Positions 893 through 2,826 of a stretch of 4,280 nt of DNA are shown piece by piece. The translations under genes were made by a program, and so were the position numbers. Each line of letters opens with the position of its first letter. Within the stretch, counting starts at the first letter, position 1. Source of the DNA: a virus. Its lineage: Duplodnaviria > Heunggongvirae > Uroviricota > Caudoviricetes. The notes beneath the pieces are model-generated. The model did not search any database. It was not told the origin of the DNA and saw nothing but the letters and a program-made list of their open reading frames with translations. Where the stretch lies: positions 1 to 4,280 of IMG/VR virus record IMGVR_UViG_2711768167_000005. One strand, 5' to 3'.

Positions 893-1090
893 TCAATACA
901 CAAAATCTGTTTTAAATTCATGGTTACATTCTGGACAGCATGTTTCGTAACCTTTTATTTCTTCACATGCCTGTTTTGCTCCAGAAAATTCCCAGAAATC
1001 TGGATCACAAAGCAGATCGAAATTGTGACCGCATTTTGGGCATTCGGTATCAAGTGACAGATTCCAGTAAGCAGTGGTGTTTTTATCCAT
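893..1090 (-). CDS. Small C4 zinc-ribbon protein (65 aa)
   Basis: Start trimmed from the track ORF 893..1132 to the ATG at 1090..1088, which follows the upstream TGA (1094..1092) by 1 nt and is preceded by AAAGGAG. Motifs C17-P-K-C20 and C52-P-E-C55 (CxxC...CxxC). TGA at 895..893. Confidence 0.55.
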   Translation of the reverse strand: MDKNTTAYWNLSLDTECPKCGHNFDLLCDPDFWEFSGAKQACEEIKGYETCCPECNHEFKTDFVY

Positions 1091-1091
1091 A

Positions 1092-1313
1092 TCAGTCTCC
1101 TTTACCCGCTGCTTTCTCCTGCTCTTTAGCAAGCCGCTCCGCTTCTCTGAAATCCCAATCCACTCGATGTGCTATATCAATTGCAGAACGCACGGTCCGT
1201 TCAATTAGCGTGTCCAGATTATCAATTGTCATTGCCATATCTGGATTGCGAGATAAAATCTCCGCCCTCTGAATCTGCCAGTTGTTGCAGGTTTCAAGTA
1301 ACGAGTTAGCCAT
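1092..1313 (-). CDS. Hypothetical small charged protein (73 aa), predicted helical
   Basis: Start trimmed from the track ORF 1092..1523 to the ATG at 1313..1311, preceded by AAAGGAAAG and separated by 1 nt from the upstream stop (1317..1315). The longer N-terminal extension would overlap the 132-aa gene out of frame. Confidence 0.55.
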   Translation of the reverse strand: MANSLLETCNNWQIQRAEILSRNPDMAMTIDNLDTLIERTVRSAIDIAHRVDWDFREAERLAKEQEKAAGKGD

Positions 1314-1314
1314 A

Positions 1315-1713
1315 TCACTTTCCTTTTCCCTGAAGCATTGCGGCGCGACAGGCATTCCAGCCTGTCGCGTATGCAGCTGCTTTGCTACTGCCTCCAACAG
1401 GCGCATCCTGCCAATACATTTCTTCTGGCACTGACGGCACTGACGCCCCAGACAGCAAAGCCTCAGCCATACACATTGCTTCCAGTCCTGTAGCCTCAGC
1501 AATACCGTCACGAATAAGCTCAAGCCCCTCTTTTGTTAACAGTTTCATTCCTTTATACATGACGGGCACCAGCGGTTCTGCTTCCAGCAATGCCAGTGCA
1601 ATTCGTGCCAGTTCTTCCGCTTCTTCTGCTGGCAATACAACGTTGCTACCAGGTCCGTATGTTTCGCGCCACTGCTGGATTGTCAGCAGTCGCTCTTTGG
1701 TAATAGTGATCAT
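1315..1713 (-). CDS. Hypothetical prophage-type protein (132 aa); paralog A2
   Basis: ATG at 1713..1711 in an ATGA overlap with the stop of the upstream nuclease-fold gene (1712..1710). N-terminal 47 aa are near-identical to the 137-aa protein; the C-terminus is distinct and ends ...GWNACRAAMLQGKGK. Confidence 0.65.
   Translation of the reverse strand: MITITKERLLTIQQWRETYGPGSNVVLPAEEAEELARIALALLEAEPLVPVMYKGMKLLTKEGLELIRDGIAEATGLEAMCMAEALLSGASVPSVPEEMYWQDAPVGGSSKAAAYATGWNACRAAMLQGKGK
1572..1713. repeat. Direct repeat copy 2 (142 bp, about 93% identical to 741..882)
   Basis: Same manual alignment as for 741..882. Covers the 5' end of the 132-aa gene. Confidence 0.85.
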
Positions 1714-2225
1714 GCTGCGTTTCCTTCTTTCTTATTAACAATTACACCGTCATATATTTCATTAAGGTGCCCTCTCAACTCCATGCGCCTTAATGCAGAT
1801 AACATGTAATCGCATTCAACCTGCTTATTTCCAGTAAATGGCTTATCGTCAGGATTACCCCAACAGCAATTACCCCTGGGCCACCCATGTACTTTCCGTA
1901 CTCTTCCGTTAACAACGTGAAGTAATCCCCAGCCAGGTGGTAAATCCTCAATTGAAATAATTCCCGGCTCACTAATAAAGAATCGCCAGTCGCCCATTCC
2001 AAGAGATGGATTTTTACGAAAACGCTTTTTTCTATCTGCCAACAAGTCAGCACGAGAACATTTCGCCTCTATCAGGCATGATGCTGAATTTCTGAATCCC
2101 ATAGCATCTGGCTGTTCTCCGGTACTGGTTACAGCTATAAAGCGGTCATGAAAACAAACCTTGAACCCGTTGCGCTTAAGGAACTTGTACGCAATCTGAC
2201 AGAGTTCGCGGTGTGTTAACGCCAT
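1710..2225 (-). CDS. Putative PD-(D/E)xK nuclease-fold protein (171 aa), possibly MmcB-like
   Basis: Start trimmed from the track ORF 1710..2306 to the ATG at 2225..2223, preceded by AAAGGAGAG and 1 nt after the upstream TGA. Residues ...GEQPD(40)AMGFRNSASCLIE(53)AK(55) fit the PD...(D/E)xK catalytic spacing. The family name is from memory and unverified. Confidence 0.6.
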   Translation of the reverse strand: MALTHRELCQIAYKFLKRNGFKVCFHDRFIAVTSTGEQPDAMGFRNSASCLIEAKCSRADLLADRKKRFRKNPSLGMGDWRFFISEPGIISIEDLPPGWGLLHVVNGRVRKVHGWPRGNCCWGNPDDKPFTGNKQVECDYMLSALRRMELRGHLNEIYDGVIVNKKEGNAA

Positions 2226-2226
2226 A

Positions 2227-2826
2227 TCACTCTCCTTTGGTGCGAATGCCAGCGACGCGTGGCACATTAACTTCCACGATGCGCACATTTGGTTTGTACA
2301 TCTCAATCGCTGTCAGCCAGTCAGCTCCTGTCATGCGCTTTTCCGCATCGCCATTAGTCCATAGAACCGGCACACCAATAGCCTTCATCGCGATTTCTAT
2401 TTCCCCGGCAATGGCGCTTTTTCCGCAACCAGTAAAACCAGATACAACGACAAGAACTTCGCCTTTGGCTGGTTTTATTTCCCGTGCTTCCAGTTCTGCA
2501 ATACGCTTACTCCCATCCGCGATTACTCCCTCGTAATATTCACGCTGCTCCTTGAGTTTTGATTTTGCTGCCTCCAGTTCGTCCAGTAGTGCAATCACAT
2601 CGGGATCACTATCATCAACTACTGTTACGCGTGATTCTTCATAATGTTCGTCTGCAAAAGTACGCCCTATCTTAAAATATCCGTCATCACCCTCACCGGA
2701 ACAGGCATAAACAACATGTGCTCCAGATATGCGCTGTATTGACATTTCCTCGCCACAAACAGAGCATTCAGGTACTGGCTTAGGTGAATAACGTTCCCGT
2801 AGCGCCTGATAATCAATCTCGCTCAC
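2227..2826 (-). CDS. Ea22-like mosaic protein (199 aa) with N-terminal CxxC, a central coiled-coil-like segment and a Walker-A-like motif
   Basis: GTG start at 2826..2824 with GGGAGG 7 nt upstream. The N-terminus MSEIDYQALRE matches the N-terminus of the 70-aa ORF at 3031..3243. Walker-A-like GFTGCGKS at residues 130-137 (nt 2416..2439) follows a hydrophobic strand EVLVVVS. TGA at 2229..2227. Confidence 0.6.
   Translation of the reverse strand: MSEIDYQALRERYSPKPVPECSVCGEEMSIQRISGAHVVYACSGEGDDGYFKIGRTFADEHYEESRVTVVDDSDPDVIALLDELEAAKSKLKEQREYYEGVIADGSKRIAELEAREIKPAKGEVLVVVSGFTGCGKSAIAGEIEIAMKAIGVPVLWTNGDAEKRMTGADWLTAIEMYKPNVRIVEVNVPRVAGIRTKGE

What the first reader, a model, noticed from the sequence alone, without database searches (positions are those of the whole stretch)
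1087..2238. Recurrent junction motif AAAGGAGANTGATATGG at three gene boundaries
The same 17-nt minus-strand architecture occurs at 1087..1103, 1310..1326 and 2222..2238. In each case the upstream gene ends in Lys-Gly-(Glu/Asp/Lys) encoded by AAAGGAGAN, which doubles as the Shine-Dalgarno of the next gene, then TGA, one T, then ATGG. This is a conserved coupling signal and a plausible boundary sequence where cassettes are exchanged between mosaic phages.
Basis: seen in the sequence. Interest (0 to 1): 0.45.

Follow-up and report, generated by a model that had tools for sequence, protein, structure and literature searches.

The report
Shared stop-start linker between swappable gene cassettes
A 17-base sequence that ends one small gene and starts the next recurs at three gene junctions here and at hundreds of junctions in E. 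coli phages, always exactly where unrelated genes have been joined, so it most likely acts both as a translation hand-over signal and as the seam at which accessory genes are swapped.

Summary
Three minus-strand copies lie at 2222-2238, 1310-1326 and 1087-1103; the middle one reads AAAGGAAAG, not AAAGGAGAN. No shuffle reproduces even one. Each copy holds the last three codons of a gene (K-G-E/K/D), a strong Shine-Dalgarno, TGA, one T and the next ATG.

The window is not a prophage. It is the variable slot of an SPI-7-type integrative conjugative element, filled with lambdoid "exo-xis/ea" cassettes.

Across about 300 related loci, the motif joins five unrelated upstream gene families to 13 downstream genes in 71 combinations. 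Homology stops at the motif edges.

An extended 35-nt form occurs in lambda (3' end of ea22), in Stx phages and P7, and in 56% of complete E. coli genomes. It explains the published but unexplained "+GE" tail of Ea22 proteins.

Best reading: a translational-coupling linker that also serves as a short homology patch for cassette exchange. Both the coupling and the recombination mechanism are inferred, not shown. It is a new variant of the known "boundary sequence" idea, of moderate interest.

The parts
2222..2238 (-). Junction motif copy J1, AAAGGAGAGTGATATGG. It holds the last three codons (KGE) and TGA of the 199-aa Ea22-like gene, one T, and the ATG+G of the 171-aa gene.
   Evidence: SD:anti-SD energy -12.1 kcal/mol. 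All 80 IMG/VR loci encoding the 171-aa protein carry this junction or a 1-nt variant, behind at least 25 different upstream 45-mers.
2221..2260 (-). Extended Ea22-type linker, (cgcgtc)GCTGGCATTCGCAcC plus the motif, encoding ..AGIRTKGE*. In relatives it appears as an isolated 32-40 nt island of identity.
   Evidence: About 15 loci share only window 2260/2252..2221. The 35-nt consensus occurs in 377 phage records and in 3,049 of 5,426 E. coli genomes. It is present at the 3' end of lambda ea22.
1310..1326 (-). Junction motif copy J2, AAAGGAAAGTGATATGG. KGK and TGA end the 132-aa gene; the ATG starts the 73-aa gene.
   Evidence: Eight HSPs arriving from the upstream gene stop at 1304-1307. SD energy -7.5 kcal/mol.
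1087..1103 (-). Junction motif copy J3, AAAGGAGACTGATATGG. KGD and TGA end the 73-aa gene; the ATG starts the 65-aa zinc-ribbon gene.
   Evidence: HSPs to the 65-aa gene begin at 1107/1103. The same downstream gene follows four different upstream gene classes.
2227..2826 (-). Ead/Ea22-like gene (199 aa, GTG start), upstream partner of J1.
   Evidence: Pfam PF13935, E = 4.6e-26.
1710..2225 (-). 171-aa cassette gene of unknown function (PHROG 9263), downstream partner of J1.
   Evidence: No solved-structure relative found by sequence.
1315..1713 (-). 132-aa gene with the shared MITITKERLL.. N-terminal module and a ..WNACRAAMLQGKGK tail, upstream partner of J2.
1092..1313 (-). 73-aa cassette flanked by J2 and J3 as direct repeats 223 nt apart. 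It is precisely absent in 11 related loci, which read DUF551-like|motif|65-aa gene.
893..1090 (-). 65-aa zinc-ribbon-like cassette, downstream partner of J3.
1698..1713 (-). Second linker class, ATGATCACTATTACCA (MITIT..), at the ATGA junction after the 171-aa gene.
   Evidence: 145 unique contexts, 29 upstream x 22 downstream clusters.
867..882 (-). Second copy of the MTTIT start linker, ATGACCACTATAACCA, at the start of the 137-aa gene.
205..240 (-). Diverged relative of the extended linker in an ICE-native gene: gcgggcattcgtatcaaaggggaacaagtgaaATGA, encoding ..AGIRIKGEQVK*.
501..510 (-). Site where relatives carry ggcatc|AAAGGAGACTGATATGG. The window instead continues into a remnant of an Ea22 coiled-coil, so the motif has been lost here.
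   Evidence: HSPs end at 503. Upstream tails of the ..QAVNIGIKGD class are listed. Repeats D5/D8.

Best explanation
The three copies are instances of a stereotyped 17-nt stop-start linker with consensus AAAGGAGAG-TGA-T-ATG-G. It is widespread in the accessory 'exo-xis/ea' gene arrays of E. coli, Shigella and Salmonella lambdoid phages and of P1/P7-like plasmid prophages. Here it lies in the variable cassette slot of an SPI-7-type integrative conjugative element. It most likely works at two levels.

(1) On the mRNA. The Shine-Dalgarno AAGGAG sits inside the last three codons of the upstream gene, which forces a Lys-Gly-Glu/Asp/Lys tail. The stop codon lies 1 nt before the next ATG. A terminating ribosome, or a 30S subunit recruited on the spot, can therefore start the next gene. 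Any cassette placed behind the linker would then be expressed from the resident operon without its own promoter.

(2) On the DNA. The same sequence ends many unrelated genes and precedes many unrelated genes. It therefore offers an in-frame patch of identity at which homologous recombination can swap, insert or delete cassettes. Candidate mechanisms are phage Red-beta/RecT-type annealing, RecA on the 32-40 nt Ea22 version, and replication slippage between direct copies.

Shown here: the sequence and geometry, the SD complementarity, the combinatorial assortment of flanks, breakpoints on the motif edges, higher promiscuity than other junction types, a precise cassette indel between two copies, and restriction of the exact sequence to the Escherichia phage gene pool.

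Inferred: that coupling actually occurs, that crossovers occur inside the motif, and which recombination pathway is used.
For: Anatomy. Three copies are present and none arises in 200 shuffles. All lie in frame at gene ends. SD:anti-SD energies are -12.1, -7.5 and -8.7 kcal/mol, with about 6 nt between AAGGAG and the ATG. No minus-strand promoter-like site was found, and the only terminator-like site is at chance level.

Assortment. There are 197 unique junction contexts. The largest bipartite component has 30 upstream x 13 downstream clusters, 71 combinations and 109 four-gamete squares. Upstream genes fall into five unrelated tail classes.

Breakpoints. For pairs with the same downstream gene but different upstream genes, identity stops at the first base of the motif in 190 of 382 pairs, and within 24 nt in about 95%. 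For pairs with the same upstream gene but different downstream genes, identity stops 0-1 nt after ATGG in 70 of 84. All 17 motif positions are at least 90% conserved, against 30-70% outside.

Sampling by protein rather than by motif. All 80 loci encoding the 171-aa protein carry the junction, behind at least 25 different upstream 45-mers.

Control. Promiscuity is 85%/73% at motif junctions, 27%/44% at ATGA overlaps, 22%/24% at TRATG overlaps, 23%/28% at other stop-N-ATG junctions and 8%/3% at gapped junctions. Of 176 stop-N-ATG contexts, 131 carry AAAGGARNN; the others are heterogeneous.

Window junctions. HSPs cross J1, J2 and J3 only 5, 5 and 8 times, but end there 116, 54 and 45 times.

Internal polymorphisms of the motif (GAG/GAC/AAG; TGAT/TGAG) segregate with neither flank.

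Precise indel. Eleven loci equal the window minus the 223-nt 73-aa cassette and one motif copy.

Distribution. The extended linker is at lambda ea22's 3' end, in 377 phage records and in 3,049 of 5,426 E. coli genomes, with up to 11 places per genome. The exact 22-mer occurs in only 2 of 185,579 species-representative genomes, which argues for descent and spread rather than a universal optimum.

Literature. All Ea22 proteins end in '+GE' of unknown significance (PMC7093339). Rad52-like phage recombinases recombine regions with only short stretches of homology (PMC3945230).
Against: The 17-nt core is shorter than the published minimal efficient pairing segment, 23-27 bp for Red-beta and 31-34 bp for RecA (PMC3945230). 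Only the Ea22-type extension of 32-40 nt reaches it.

The locus sets were retrieved through the motif or through genes that follow it. This may inflate the promiscuity of motif junctions relative to the controls.

Other junctions in the same array (the Ea22 start island and the MTTIT start island, window junctions j3, j5 and j10) break just as often. The motif is therefore not unique.

More distant homologues of the 65-aa and 73-aa genes use different junction sequences, so the motif is not required for function.

An ICE-native gene carries ..GIRIKGE with synonymous changes. This hints at some protein-level constraint on the Ea22-type tail.

No expression or recombination experiment exists for this sequence.
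Confidence: 0.68

Rival explanations
1. The motif is only a translational-coupling signal. The copies look alike because selection for a strong SD, optimal spacing and an adjacent stop and start repeatedly converged on the same sequence. Recombination happens elsewhere, and gene-boundary breakpoints merely reflect selection for intact genes.
For: SD, spacing and stop/start proximity are textbook-optimal. AAGGAG-A-GTGAT is complementary to the 16S 3' tail with one bulged base, which could favour G at position 9 and T at position 13. Distant homologues keep an SD-in-tail plus stop plus start architecture with different sequences.
Against: Other stop-N-ATG junctions in the same loci have heterogeneous 9-mers. 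In the Ea22 class, identity extends 15-24 nt further upstream, including synonymous positions. The exact 22-mer is confined to Escherichia among 185,579 species-representative genomes. Identity ends abruptly on both edges, and 109 four-gamete squares need repeated exchange exactly there.
Confidence: 0.1
2. Illegitimate recombination plus selection (the Hendrix model). Each downstream cassette carries the motif as its own ribosome-binding site, like a moron. Random joints are made and only functional ones survive. The motif marks boundaries because it is the cassette's 5' end, not because recombination occurs in it.
For: The motif is nearly invariant in front of the 171-aa gene whatever lies upstream. 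Many phage mosaics have no conserved boundary sequence (PMC3233612). The window itself has a non-motif joint at 503.
Against: The motif contains the upstream gene's last three codons and its stop. In every enterobacterial context analysed, the upstream ORF is in that frame. Random joints would not cut repeatedly at the same base and in frame for five unrelated families. Lambda keeps the linker at the end of ea22 with no downstream gene, so the linker also travels with the upstream gene. Internal polymorphisms segregate with neither flank.
Confidence: 0.14
3. The conserved element is really a protein feature: a functional C-terminal peptide (..AAGIRIKGE, '+GE') needed by Ea22-like proteins. The DNA identity is a by-product.
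For: All Ea22 proteins end in +GE (PMC7093339). The ICE-native 71-aa protein has ..GIRIKGE encoded with three synonymous differences. Distant relatives keep AAGI..E tails.
Against: Five unrelated protein families end in KGE/KGD/KGK. The third residue varies (E/D/K/G) while the nucleotides of the SD do not. Conservation continues through the stop, the spacer and the next start codon, which no upstream protein function can explain. In lambda the tail is disordered sequence beyond the folded CTD; this is my inference and was not tested.
Confidence: 0.06
4. The motif is the target of a dedicated site-specific system, integron-like or endonuclease-stimulated, that moves cassettes.
For: It shows array-like organisation with a repeated short site at each cassette boundary, and presence on phages, plasmid prophages and an ICE.
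Against: The motif has no dyad symmetry or hairpin potential (read directly from the sequence). No integrase or endonuclease gene is consistently adjacent, and all cassette proteins are PHROG 'unknown function'. No Rfam match. Breakpoints in the Ea22 class spread over 0-40 nt upstream, as expected for homologous rather than site-specific exchange.
Confidence: 0.02

Closest known systems
Conserved 'boundary/linker' sequences of lambdoid phages (modular theory of Susskind & Botstein 1978; Clark et al. 2001, HK620), as summarised in PMC3233612
   Same: A short sequence is conserved between otherwise unrelated modules. It lies at module and gene boundaries and is proposed as a focus of homologous recombination that assorts modules. 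The phage group is the same.
   Different: From memory, since the paper is not held, the HK620 study described a handful of boundary sequences between large functional modules. This one is a 17-nt translational stop-start junction repeated several times within one accessory-gene array. It lies partly inside coding sequence, imposes a KGE tail, and also occurs on P1/P7-like elements and an ICE. I could not check whether that paper lists this sequence. The exact 16-mer is absent from all held papers.
PeSL mobile regulatory cassettes of T4-type phages (Arbiol et al. 2010, PMC2839356)
   Same: Short conserved expression signals flank non-essential ORFan genes in hyperplastic regions. Recombination between copies shuffles, inserts and deletes cassettes. 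Direct repeats flank single cassettes, as J2 and J3 flank the 73-aa gene here.
   Different: PeSLs are a sigma-70 promoter plus a stem-loop terminator, a transcriptional unit. This linker has neither. It is a translational unit (SD-stop-start) inside one operon. Mini-circles have not been looked for.
Translational coupling by termination-reinitiation at overlapping or adjacent stop/start codons (ATGA, TGATG, TGAnATG) in bacterial and phage operons (established knowledge)
   Same: The SD is embedded in the 3' end of the upstream ORF, the stop lies within a few nt of the start, and the genes are co-directional and tightly packed. Five other junctions in this window are ATGA or GTGA overlaps.
   Different: Ordinary coupled junctions are idiosyncratic in sequence. 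This one is a fixed 17-mer shared by unrelated gene pairs.
'+GE' C-terminal tripeptide and mosaic organisation of Ea22 proteins (Dydecka et al. 2020, PMC7093339; Donaldson lab 2024, PMC10834534)
   Same: The genes and tail are the same. Those authors note that all Ea22 variants, despite unrelated C-terminal domains, end in K/R-G-E, and that Ea22 is mosaic.
   Different: Those papers treat it as a protein motif of unknown significance. Here it is shown to be the coding shadow of a nucleotide-level linker that non-Ea22 genes also share.
Integron gene cassettes (attC x attI, IntI)
   Same: Promoterless small cassettes are arrayed in one orientation behind a resident promoter, with a repeated short boundary element.
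   Different: There is no attC-like imperfect palindrome and no integron integrase. Exchange appears to depend on homology.

Membership tests
Translationally coupled stop-start junction | Shine-Dalgarno complementary to the 16S 3' end, 5-9 nt upstream of the start and inside the upstream ORF | tested here: met
   AAGGAG lies 6 nt before the ATG. Duplex energies are -12.1, -7.5 and -8.7 kcal/mol.
Translationally coupled stop-start junction | Upstream stop codon within a few nt of, or overlapping, the downstream start, on the same strand | tested here: met
   TGA-T-ATG in all three copies.
Translationally coupled stop-start junction | No independent promoter or terminator between the genes | tested here: met
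   No minus-strand promoter-like site. There is one weak 5-bp terminator-like site at chance level. This is a consensus scan only.
Translationally coupled stop-start junction | Downstream translation depends on upstream translation | not testable with these tools
   Needs reporter fusions with premature stops or SD mutations.
Recombination 'boundary/linker' sequence (lambdoid modular theory) | A short sequence conserved between otherwise unrelated flanks on both sides | tested here: met
   2,019 pairs differ on both sides yet share the motif. About 15 loci share only a 32-40 nt island with the window.
Recombination 'boundary/linker' sequence (lambdoid modular theory) | Homology breakpoints coincide with the element | tested here: met
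   Identity stops 0 nt upstream in 190 of 382 pairs and 0-1 nt downstream in 70 of 84. HSP ends pile up at 2221, 2238-2260, 1304-1307 and 1103-1107.
Recombination 'boundary/linker' sequence (lambdoid modular theory) | Flanking modules assort combinatorially (all four combinations present) | tested here: met
   71 combinations of 30 x 13 clusters and 109 four-gamete squares.
Recombination 'boundary/linker' sequence (lambdoid modular theory) | More associated with module exchange than ordinary junctions of the same genomes | tested here: met
   85%/73% against 3-44%. Caveat: the loci were retrieved partly through the motif.
Recombination 'boundary/linker' sequence (lambdoid modular theory) | Long enough to support homologous pairing (MEPS 23-27 bp for Red-beta, 31-34 bp for RecA) | tested here: inconclusive
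   The 17-nt core is too short. The Ea22-type extended linker of 32-40 nt is long enough.
Recombination 'boundary/linker' sequence (lambdoid modular theory) | Crossovers demonstrably occur within it | not testable with these tools
   The support is indirect. Internal polymorphisms segregate with neither flank, and a precise cassette indel lies between two copies.
PeSL-type mobile regulatory cassette (T4-type phages) | Strong sigma-70 early promoter plus stem-loop terminator | tested here: not met
   There is no promoter-like or terminator-like site at or near any of the three copies.
PeSL-type mobile regulatory cassette (T4-type phages) | Copies flank non-essential ORFan genes in a hyperplastic region and mediate indels and replacements | tested here: met
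   All cassettes are PHROG 'unknown function'. The ICE slot holds 1 to about 12 genes. A precise indel was found.
Integron cassette boundary (attC) | Imperfect inverted repeat forming a hairpin, with an adjacent IntI integrase | tested here: not met
   The 17-mer and its flanks have no dyad symmetry. No integrase lies in the array.
Lambdoid exo-xis / Ea22 region | Ead/Ea22 family genes present | tested here: met
   PF13935 hits for the 70-aa and 199-aa proteins. There is 95-97% nucleotide identity to the Stx and P1/P7 phage ea22/eaA regions.
Lambdoid exo-xis / Ea22 region | Located between exo and xis in the pL operon of a lambdoid prophage | tested here: not met
   The window lies between ParE-like/DUF2857 and STY4528 of an SPI-7/PFGI-1-type ICE next to tRNA-Ser.

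The most novel reading that the evidence does not exclude
The motif is one of at least three dedicated linker classes: the KGE stop-start linker, the ATGACCACTATTACCA start linker and the Ea22 start island. Together they would make the 'ea' arrays a homology-driven, integron-like cassette exchange system. Promoterless accessory genes would be traded in frame among lambdoid prophages, P1/P7 plasmid prophages and SPI-7-type ICEs. The short-homology recombinases (Red/RecET) encoded next to these arrays in phages would be the engine, and the linker would guarantee immediate expression of each newcomer by translational coupling.
Probability: 0.3. Interest if true: 0.65.

Novelty: new variant of a known kind. 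Interest (0 to 1): 0.5.

Why it matters
How phage genomes become mosaics has been argued for decades. One view is homologous recombination at short conserved linkers; the other is random illegitimate joining followed by selection.

This junction is an unusually clean, abundant and natural case for the linker model. A defined 17-40 nt sequence occurs in more than half of E. coli genomes. It has dozens of partner combinations, base-precise breakpoints and a built-in reason for being conserved, namely translation hand-over. That makes the question directly testable with simple crosses and reporters in lambda or Stx phages.

The finding also explains a published puzzle, the '+GE' tail of Ea22 proteins. 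It shows that the same cassette pool is shared by prophages, plasmid prophages and a conjugative island. That matters for tracing accessory genes in Shiga-toxin phages. It also flags likely annotation artefacts, such as fused or frameshifted 'Ea22' genes, at these junctions.

Tried and rejected
(1) Known RNA element: Rfam gave no match at gathering thresholds.

(2) Function of the cassettes, as a clue to why they are exchanged. Pfam, PHROGs and NCBIfam gave only Ead_Ea22, ParE-like and DUF2857 plus 'unknown function' families. The 171-aa protein has no solved-structure relative by sequence. I did not pursue this further.

(3) Literature. The HK620 boundary-sequence paper and the ACS Omega Ea22 paper are not held. 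The exact 16-mer is in no held paper. Prior description therefore cannot be fully excluded.

(4) The raw IMG/VR pattern scan is about half noise, from low-GC phages where AAAGGAGA is simply the SD and TGA is not an in-frame stop. I therefore re-sampled by protein homology and required open frames on both sides.

(5) Other SPI-7-type ICEs (L308-L310) do not carry the motif. It is therefore not an ICE-backbone feature.

(6) Extended pairing of GTGAT with the 16S tail could explain positions 9 and 13. It is plausible, but these are the most polymorphic motif positions, so I left it as a side note.

(7) A site-specific or hairpin model was rejected for lack of symmetry and of any recombinase.

(8) My first coordinates for the 171-aa gene were off by one and were corrected.
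Full report
**1. The observation**

On the minus strand the window carries a head-to-tail chain of small genes. A pattern search finds exactly three matches to AAAGGAGANTGATATGG:
- 2222-2238, AAAGGAGAGTGATATGG;
- 1310-1326, AAAGGAAAGTGATATGG, with one mismatch (A for G at position 7);
- 1087-1103, AAAGGAGACTGATATGG.

None of 200 dinucleotide-preserving shuffles gave a match, even with two mismatches allowed. The repeat finder recovers the same three copies independently (family D3).

In each copy the first nine bases are the last three codons of a gene. The 199-aa Ea22-like protein ends ..KGE, the 132-aa protein ends ..KGK and the 73-aa protein ends ..KGD. TGA, one T and the ATG of the next gene (171 aa, 73 aa, 65 aa) follow. 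Outside the 17 nt the three copies are unrelated.

**2. Context**

The window is 99.5% identical to a chromosomal segment of E. coli VTB96815v. That segment lies next to tRNA-Ser inside an SPI-7/PFGI-1-type integrative conjugative element. Its gene order is ParA, DnaB-PI, ParB, DUF2786, DUF2857, ParE-like ... STY4528, topoisomerase III, PilL2. So the window is an ICE, not a prophage.

Only the two ends of the window are ICE backbone (4280-3425 and 422-81). These are the only long stretches shared with another ICE of the family. The slot between ParE-like and STY4528 varies among ICEs. It holds one small gene in RM11911, two genes in NC101, five in STEC2018-553 and about twelve here.

The genes filling the slot here are phage-type. 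They include Ead/Ea22 family proteins (Pfam PF13935) and several PHROG families of unknown function. Segments are 95-97% identical to the ea22/eaA region of Stx-converting and other lambdoid phages and of P1/P7.

No minus-strand promoter-like site was found, and terminator-like sites are at chance level. The other junctions in the chain are ATGA or GTGA overlaps or short gaps, each preceded by an SD. The array reads as one tightly coupled operon.

**3. The motif elsewhere**

About half are unrelated low-GC phages in which the match is just an SD plus ATG. The other half are enterobacterial lambdoid 'ea' regions, nearly all with AAAGGAGA(G/C)TGATATGG. In these, several different upstream gene ends are joined to several different downstream genes.

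To avoid selecting on the motif, I retrieved loci by protein homology to the three downstream genes.
- All 80 loci encoding the 171-aa protein have the junction or a one-base variant, behind at least 25 different upstream 45-mers.
- Most close homologues of the 65-aa and 73-aa genes have it too.
- More distant homologues use other sequences, which still have an SD in the tail, a stop and a start.

**4. Assortment and breakpoints**

I collected 197 unique junction contexts with open reading frames on both sides. The largest connected set contains 30 upstream clusters and 13 downstream clusters in 71 combinations. It includes 109 cases where all four combinations of two upstream and two downstream partners exist.

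The upstream genes collapse into five unrelated families:
- Ea22-like, ..AGIRIKGE;
- ..NRWKNHLRTKGE;
- DUF551-like, ..AMLQGKGE;
- ..QAVNIGIKGD;
- ..EKAAGKGD.

Even so, each common downstream gene follows three or four of these families.

Homology ends at the motif.
- For pairs with the same downstream gene but different upstream genes, identity stops at the first base of the motif in 190 of 382 pairs, and within 24 nt in about 95%.
- For pairs with the same upstream gene but different downstream genes, identity stops 0-1 nt after ATGG in 70 of 84.
- All 17 positions are at least 90% conserved, against 30-70% outside.

In the window itself, HSPs to related loci cross J1, J2 and J3 only 5, 5 and 8 times, but end within 30 nt of them 116, 54 and 45 times. 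About 15 loci share nothing with the window around J1 except a 32-40 nt island at 2260/2252-2221.

**5.

In 229 enterobacterial loci (1.3 Mb) I listed all stop/start junctions with open frames on both sides. Of 176 unique stop-N-ATG contexts, 131 carry AAAGGARNN. The remainder are heterogeneous, so the motif is not a generic outcome of that geometry.

Promiscuity was measured in two directions. The first figure is the share of pairs with the same downstream sequence whose upstream sequences are unrelated. The second is the reverse.

| Junction type | same downstream, unrelated upstream | same upstream, unrelated downstream |
|---|---|---|
| Motif junctions | 85% | 73% |
| ATGA overlaps | 27% | 44% |
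| TRATG overlaps | 22% | 24% |
| Other stop-N-ATG | 23% | 28% |
| Gapped junctions | 8% | 3% |

The refutation criterion is therefore not met. The caveat is that part of the sample was retrieved through the motif or its downstream genes.

**6. Fine structure**

The motif's internal polymorphisms are the third codon (GAG, GAC, AAG or GGG) and the spacer (T or G). They go with neither flank exclusively. For example, the 65-aa gene is preceded by both GAC and GAG behind the same three upstream families. This is what crossovers on either side of those positions would produce, although recurrent mutation is not excluded.

Eleven loci read DUF551-like gene | motif | 65-aa gene. That is the window's arrangement minus exactly the 223-nt 73-aa cassette and one motif copy. 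It is the signature of recombination between direct repeats.

**7. Breadth**

The 35-nt Ea22-type version is GCCGCTGGCATTCGCATCAAAGGAGAGTGATATGG.
- It is found in 377 of 50,697 phage records, including lambda, Stx phages, P7 and Salmonella phages.
- It is found in 3,049 of 5,426 complete E. coli genomes, with a median of 2 and a maximum of 11 places per genome, and 401 places on plasmids.
- In lambda it forms the 3' end of ea22. There the start codon has decayed to ATC and about 190 nt of non-coding DNA follow.
- The exact 22-mer GCATC plus motif occurs in only 2 of 185,579 species-representative genomes. One is an Escherichia sp. The other is a 3.3-kb contig binned as Segatella copri, probably mis-binned.

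The sequence is therefore a lineage-specific element of the Escherichia phage gene pool, not a universal optimum.

**8. Mechanism**

(a) Translation. AAGGAG lies 6 nt before the ATG. Predicted pairing with the 16S 3' end is -12.1, -7.5 and -8.7 kcal/mol for J1 to J3, and the stop lies 1 nt before the start. By established knowledge of termination-reinitiation, this should couple the downstream gene to the upstream one. That is inferred, not shown.

Placing the SD in the last three codons forces the K-G-E/D/K tail. This explains the observation of Dydecka et al. that all Ea22 proteins, despite unrelated C-terminal domains, end in '+GE' of unknown significance (PMC7093339). It also explains why four non-Ea22 families end the same way.

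(b) Recombination. An island of identity bounded on both sides by unrelated sequence, in many combinations and always in frame, is hard to obtain by illegitimate joining or by convergence. Exchange within the island is the simplest explanation.

Phage Rad52-like recombinases recombine substrates that share only short stretches of homology. The minimal efficient pairing segment is 23-27 bp for Red-beta and 31-34 bp for RecA (PMC3945230). The Ea22-type linker (32-40 nt) meets this; the bare 17-nt core does not. Exchange at core-only junctions must then be rarer, or must use annealing or slippage pathways that tolerate shorter homology. This is the weakest step of the argument.

**9. Rivals**

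- Pure convergence on an optimal coupling signal is contradicted by three things: the heterogeneous sequences of other junctions with the same geometry, the upstream extension of identity and the narrow taxonomic range.
- Illegitimate recombination with the motif as the downstream cassette's RBS does not explain why five unrelated upstream families always enter the motif in frame. Nor does it explain why lambda keeps the linker without a downstream gene.
- A functional C-terminal peptide does not explain conservation through the stop, the spacer and the next start. However, the ICE-native 71-aa gene (window 420-205) ends ..AAAGIRIKGEQVK with synonymous differences. Some protein-level or ancient component of the Ea22-type extension therefore cannot be excluded.
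- A site-specific system is unsupported. There is no symmetry, no recombinase and no Rfam hit.

**10. Relation to what is known**

The idea of short conserved boundary sequences as foci of recombination in lambdoid phages is old. It goes back to Susskind & Botstein 1978 and Clark et al. 2001, and is summarised in PMC3233612. [quoted passage not shown]

This element differs in being a translational stop-start unit inside an operon. It also overlaps coding sequence and is shared across prophages, plasmid prophages and an ICE. The mosaic nature of Ea22 and of the exo-xis region is published (PMC10834534, PMC8614690).

I found no description of this junction. The exact 16-mer is in no held paper. 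The HK620 paper could not be read, so prior description cannot be fully excluded. I rate it a new variant of a known kind.

**11. Other linkers**

The motif is not the only linker in the array.
- Genes after the 171-aa and 65-aa cassettes all begin ATGA(C/T)CACTATTACCA (MTTIT..) and then diverge. There are 145 contexts, 29 x 22 clusters and 53 combinations.
- An Ea22 start island (window 2795-2837 and 3195-3244) also occurs as an isolated patch in dozens of loci.
- At window 503, relatives have the motif. The window instead runs into a remnant of an Ea22 coiled-coil.

The array as a whole looks like a set of cassettes separated by a few classes of short shared seams.

**12. Verdict**

The finding is of moderate interest. 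It is not a new principle, but it is a clean, abundant and testable case for one side of a long-standing debate. It also gives a concrete explanation for the Ea22 '+GE' tail.

Noticed in passing
window 1-4280; L001 1-28237: The window is the variable cassette slot of an SPI-7/PFGI-1-type ICE next to tRNA-Ser, between ParE-like/DUF2857 and STY4528. It is not a prophage. The slot holds 1, 2, 5 or about 12 genes in different E. coli ICEs.
   Followed up: yes
window 1698-1713 and 867-882 (minus strand): A second conserved linker, ATGA(C/T)CACTATTACCA (MTTIT..), starts many otherwise unrelated genes. There are 145 unique contexts, 29 upstream x 22 downstream clusters and 53 combinations.
   Followed up: partly
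window 2795-2837 and 3195-3244 (minus strand): The start region of Ea22-like genes (MSxIDYQxLRE) appears as an isolated 43-63 nt island of homology in dozens of loci. It forms a third linker class and a hot breakpoint.
   Followed up: partly
window 738-882 and 1569-1713: A 145-nt direct repeat at 93% identity encodes the shared N-terminal module (M[IT]TITKERLLTI.QWRETYGPGSNVVLPAEEAEELAR..) of the 137-aa and 132-aa proteins, whose C-terminal parts differ.
   Followed up: partly
window 417-510 (minus strand): Relatives of the 137-aa gene end ggcatc|AAAGGAGACTGATATGG. The window instead continues into a fragment homologous to the Ea22 coiled-coil (compare 2488-2580). This leaves a possible 28-aa ORF (503-417) ending TCATGA on the next start. 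It looks like a lost motif junction and a scar of how the phage block entered the ICE.
   Followed up: partly
window 205-240 (minus strand); L308 8570-8605: The ICE-native 71-aa gene ends ..AAAGIRIKGEQVK*, encoded as gcgggcattcgtatcaaaggggaacaagtgaaATGA. It is a diverged relative of the extended linker with three synonymous changes, which hints at an older or protein-level component of the Ea22-type tail.
   Followed up: partly
L307 (lambda NC_001416) 2343-2377, minus strand: Lambda ea22 ends GCTGGCATTCGCATCAAAGGAGAGTGAGATCGG. This is the extended linker with the downstream start decayed to ATC, followed by about 190 nt of non-coding DNA before ea8.5.
   Followed up: yes
window 2226-2237 (J1): AAGGAG-A-GTGAT equals the perfect complement of the 16S rRNA 3' tail (AAGGAGGTGATC) with one bulged A. 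This gives -12.1 kcal/mol and might favour G at motif position 9 and T at position 13. These are nevertheless the most polymorphic motif positions.
   Followed up: partly
window 1-115: Relative to two ICE homologues, the last ~115 bases of the window degrade progressively, with G-runs (for example GGGGGGGGGGG at about 58-70), mismatches and a deletion. This is probably a low-quality contig end rather than biology.
   Followed up: partly
window 3423-4246 (minus strand): A ParE-like toxin-domain gene (82 aa) overlaps the DUF2857 gene by ATGA and has no recognisable antitoxin. DUF2857 might play that role.
   Followed up: no
loci of the 65-aa gene set: Five loci carry ..GCATCAAAGGAGAGTGAGTGATATGG, a 4-nt (GAGT) duplication inside the junction. 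It changes the upstream tail and stop. Such slips may underlie 'fused' or 'frameshifted' Ea22 annotations like those in L001.
   Followed up: no
L311 (JAJXBQ010000292.1): A 3.3-kb contig binned as a Segatella copri MAG contains the exact E. coli phage linker 22-mer. It is probably a mis-binned enterobacterial phage fragment.
   Followed up: no
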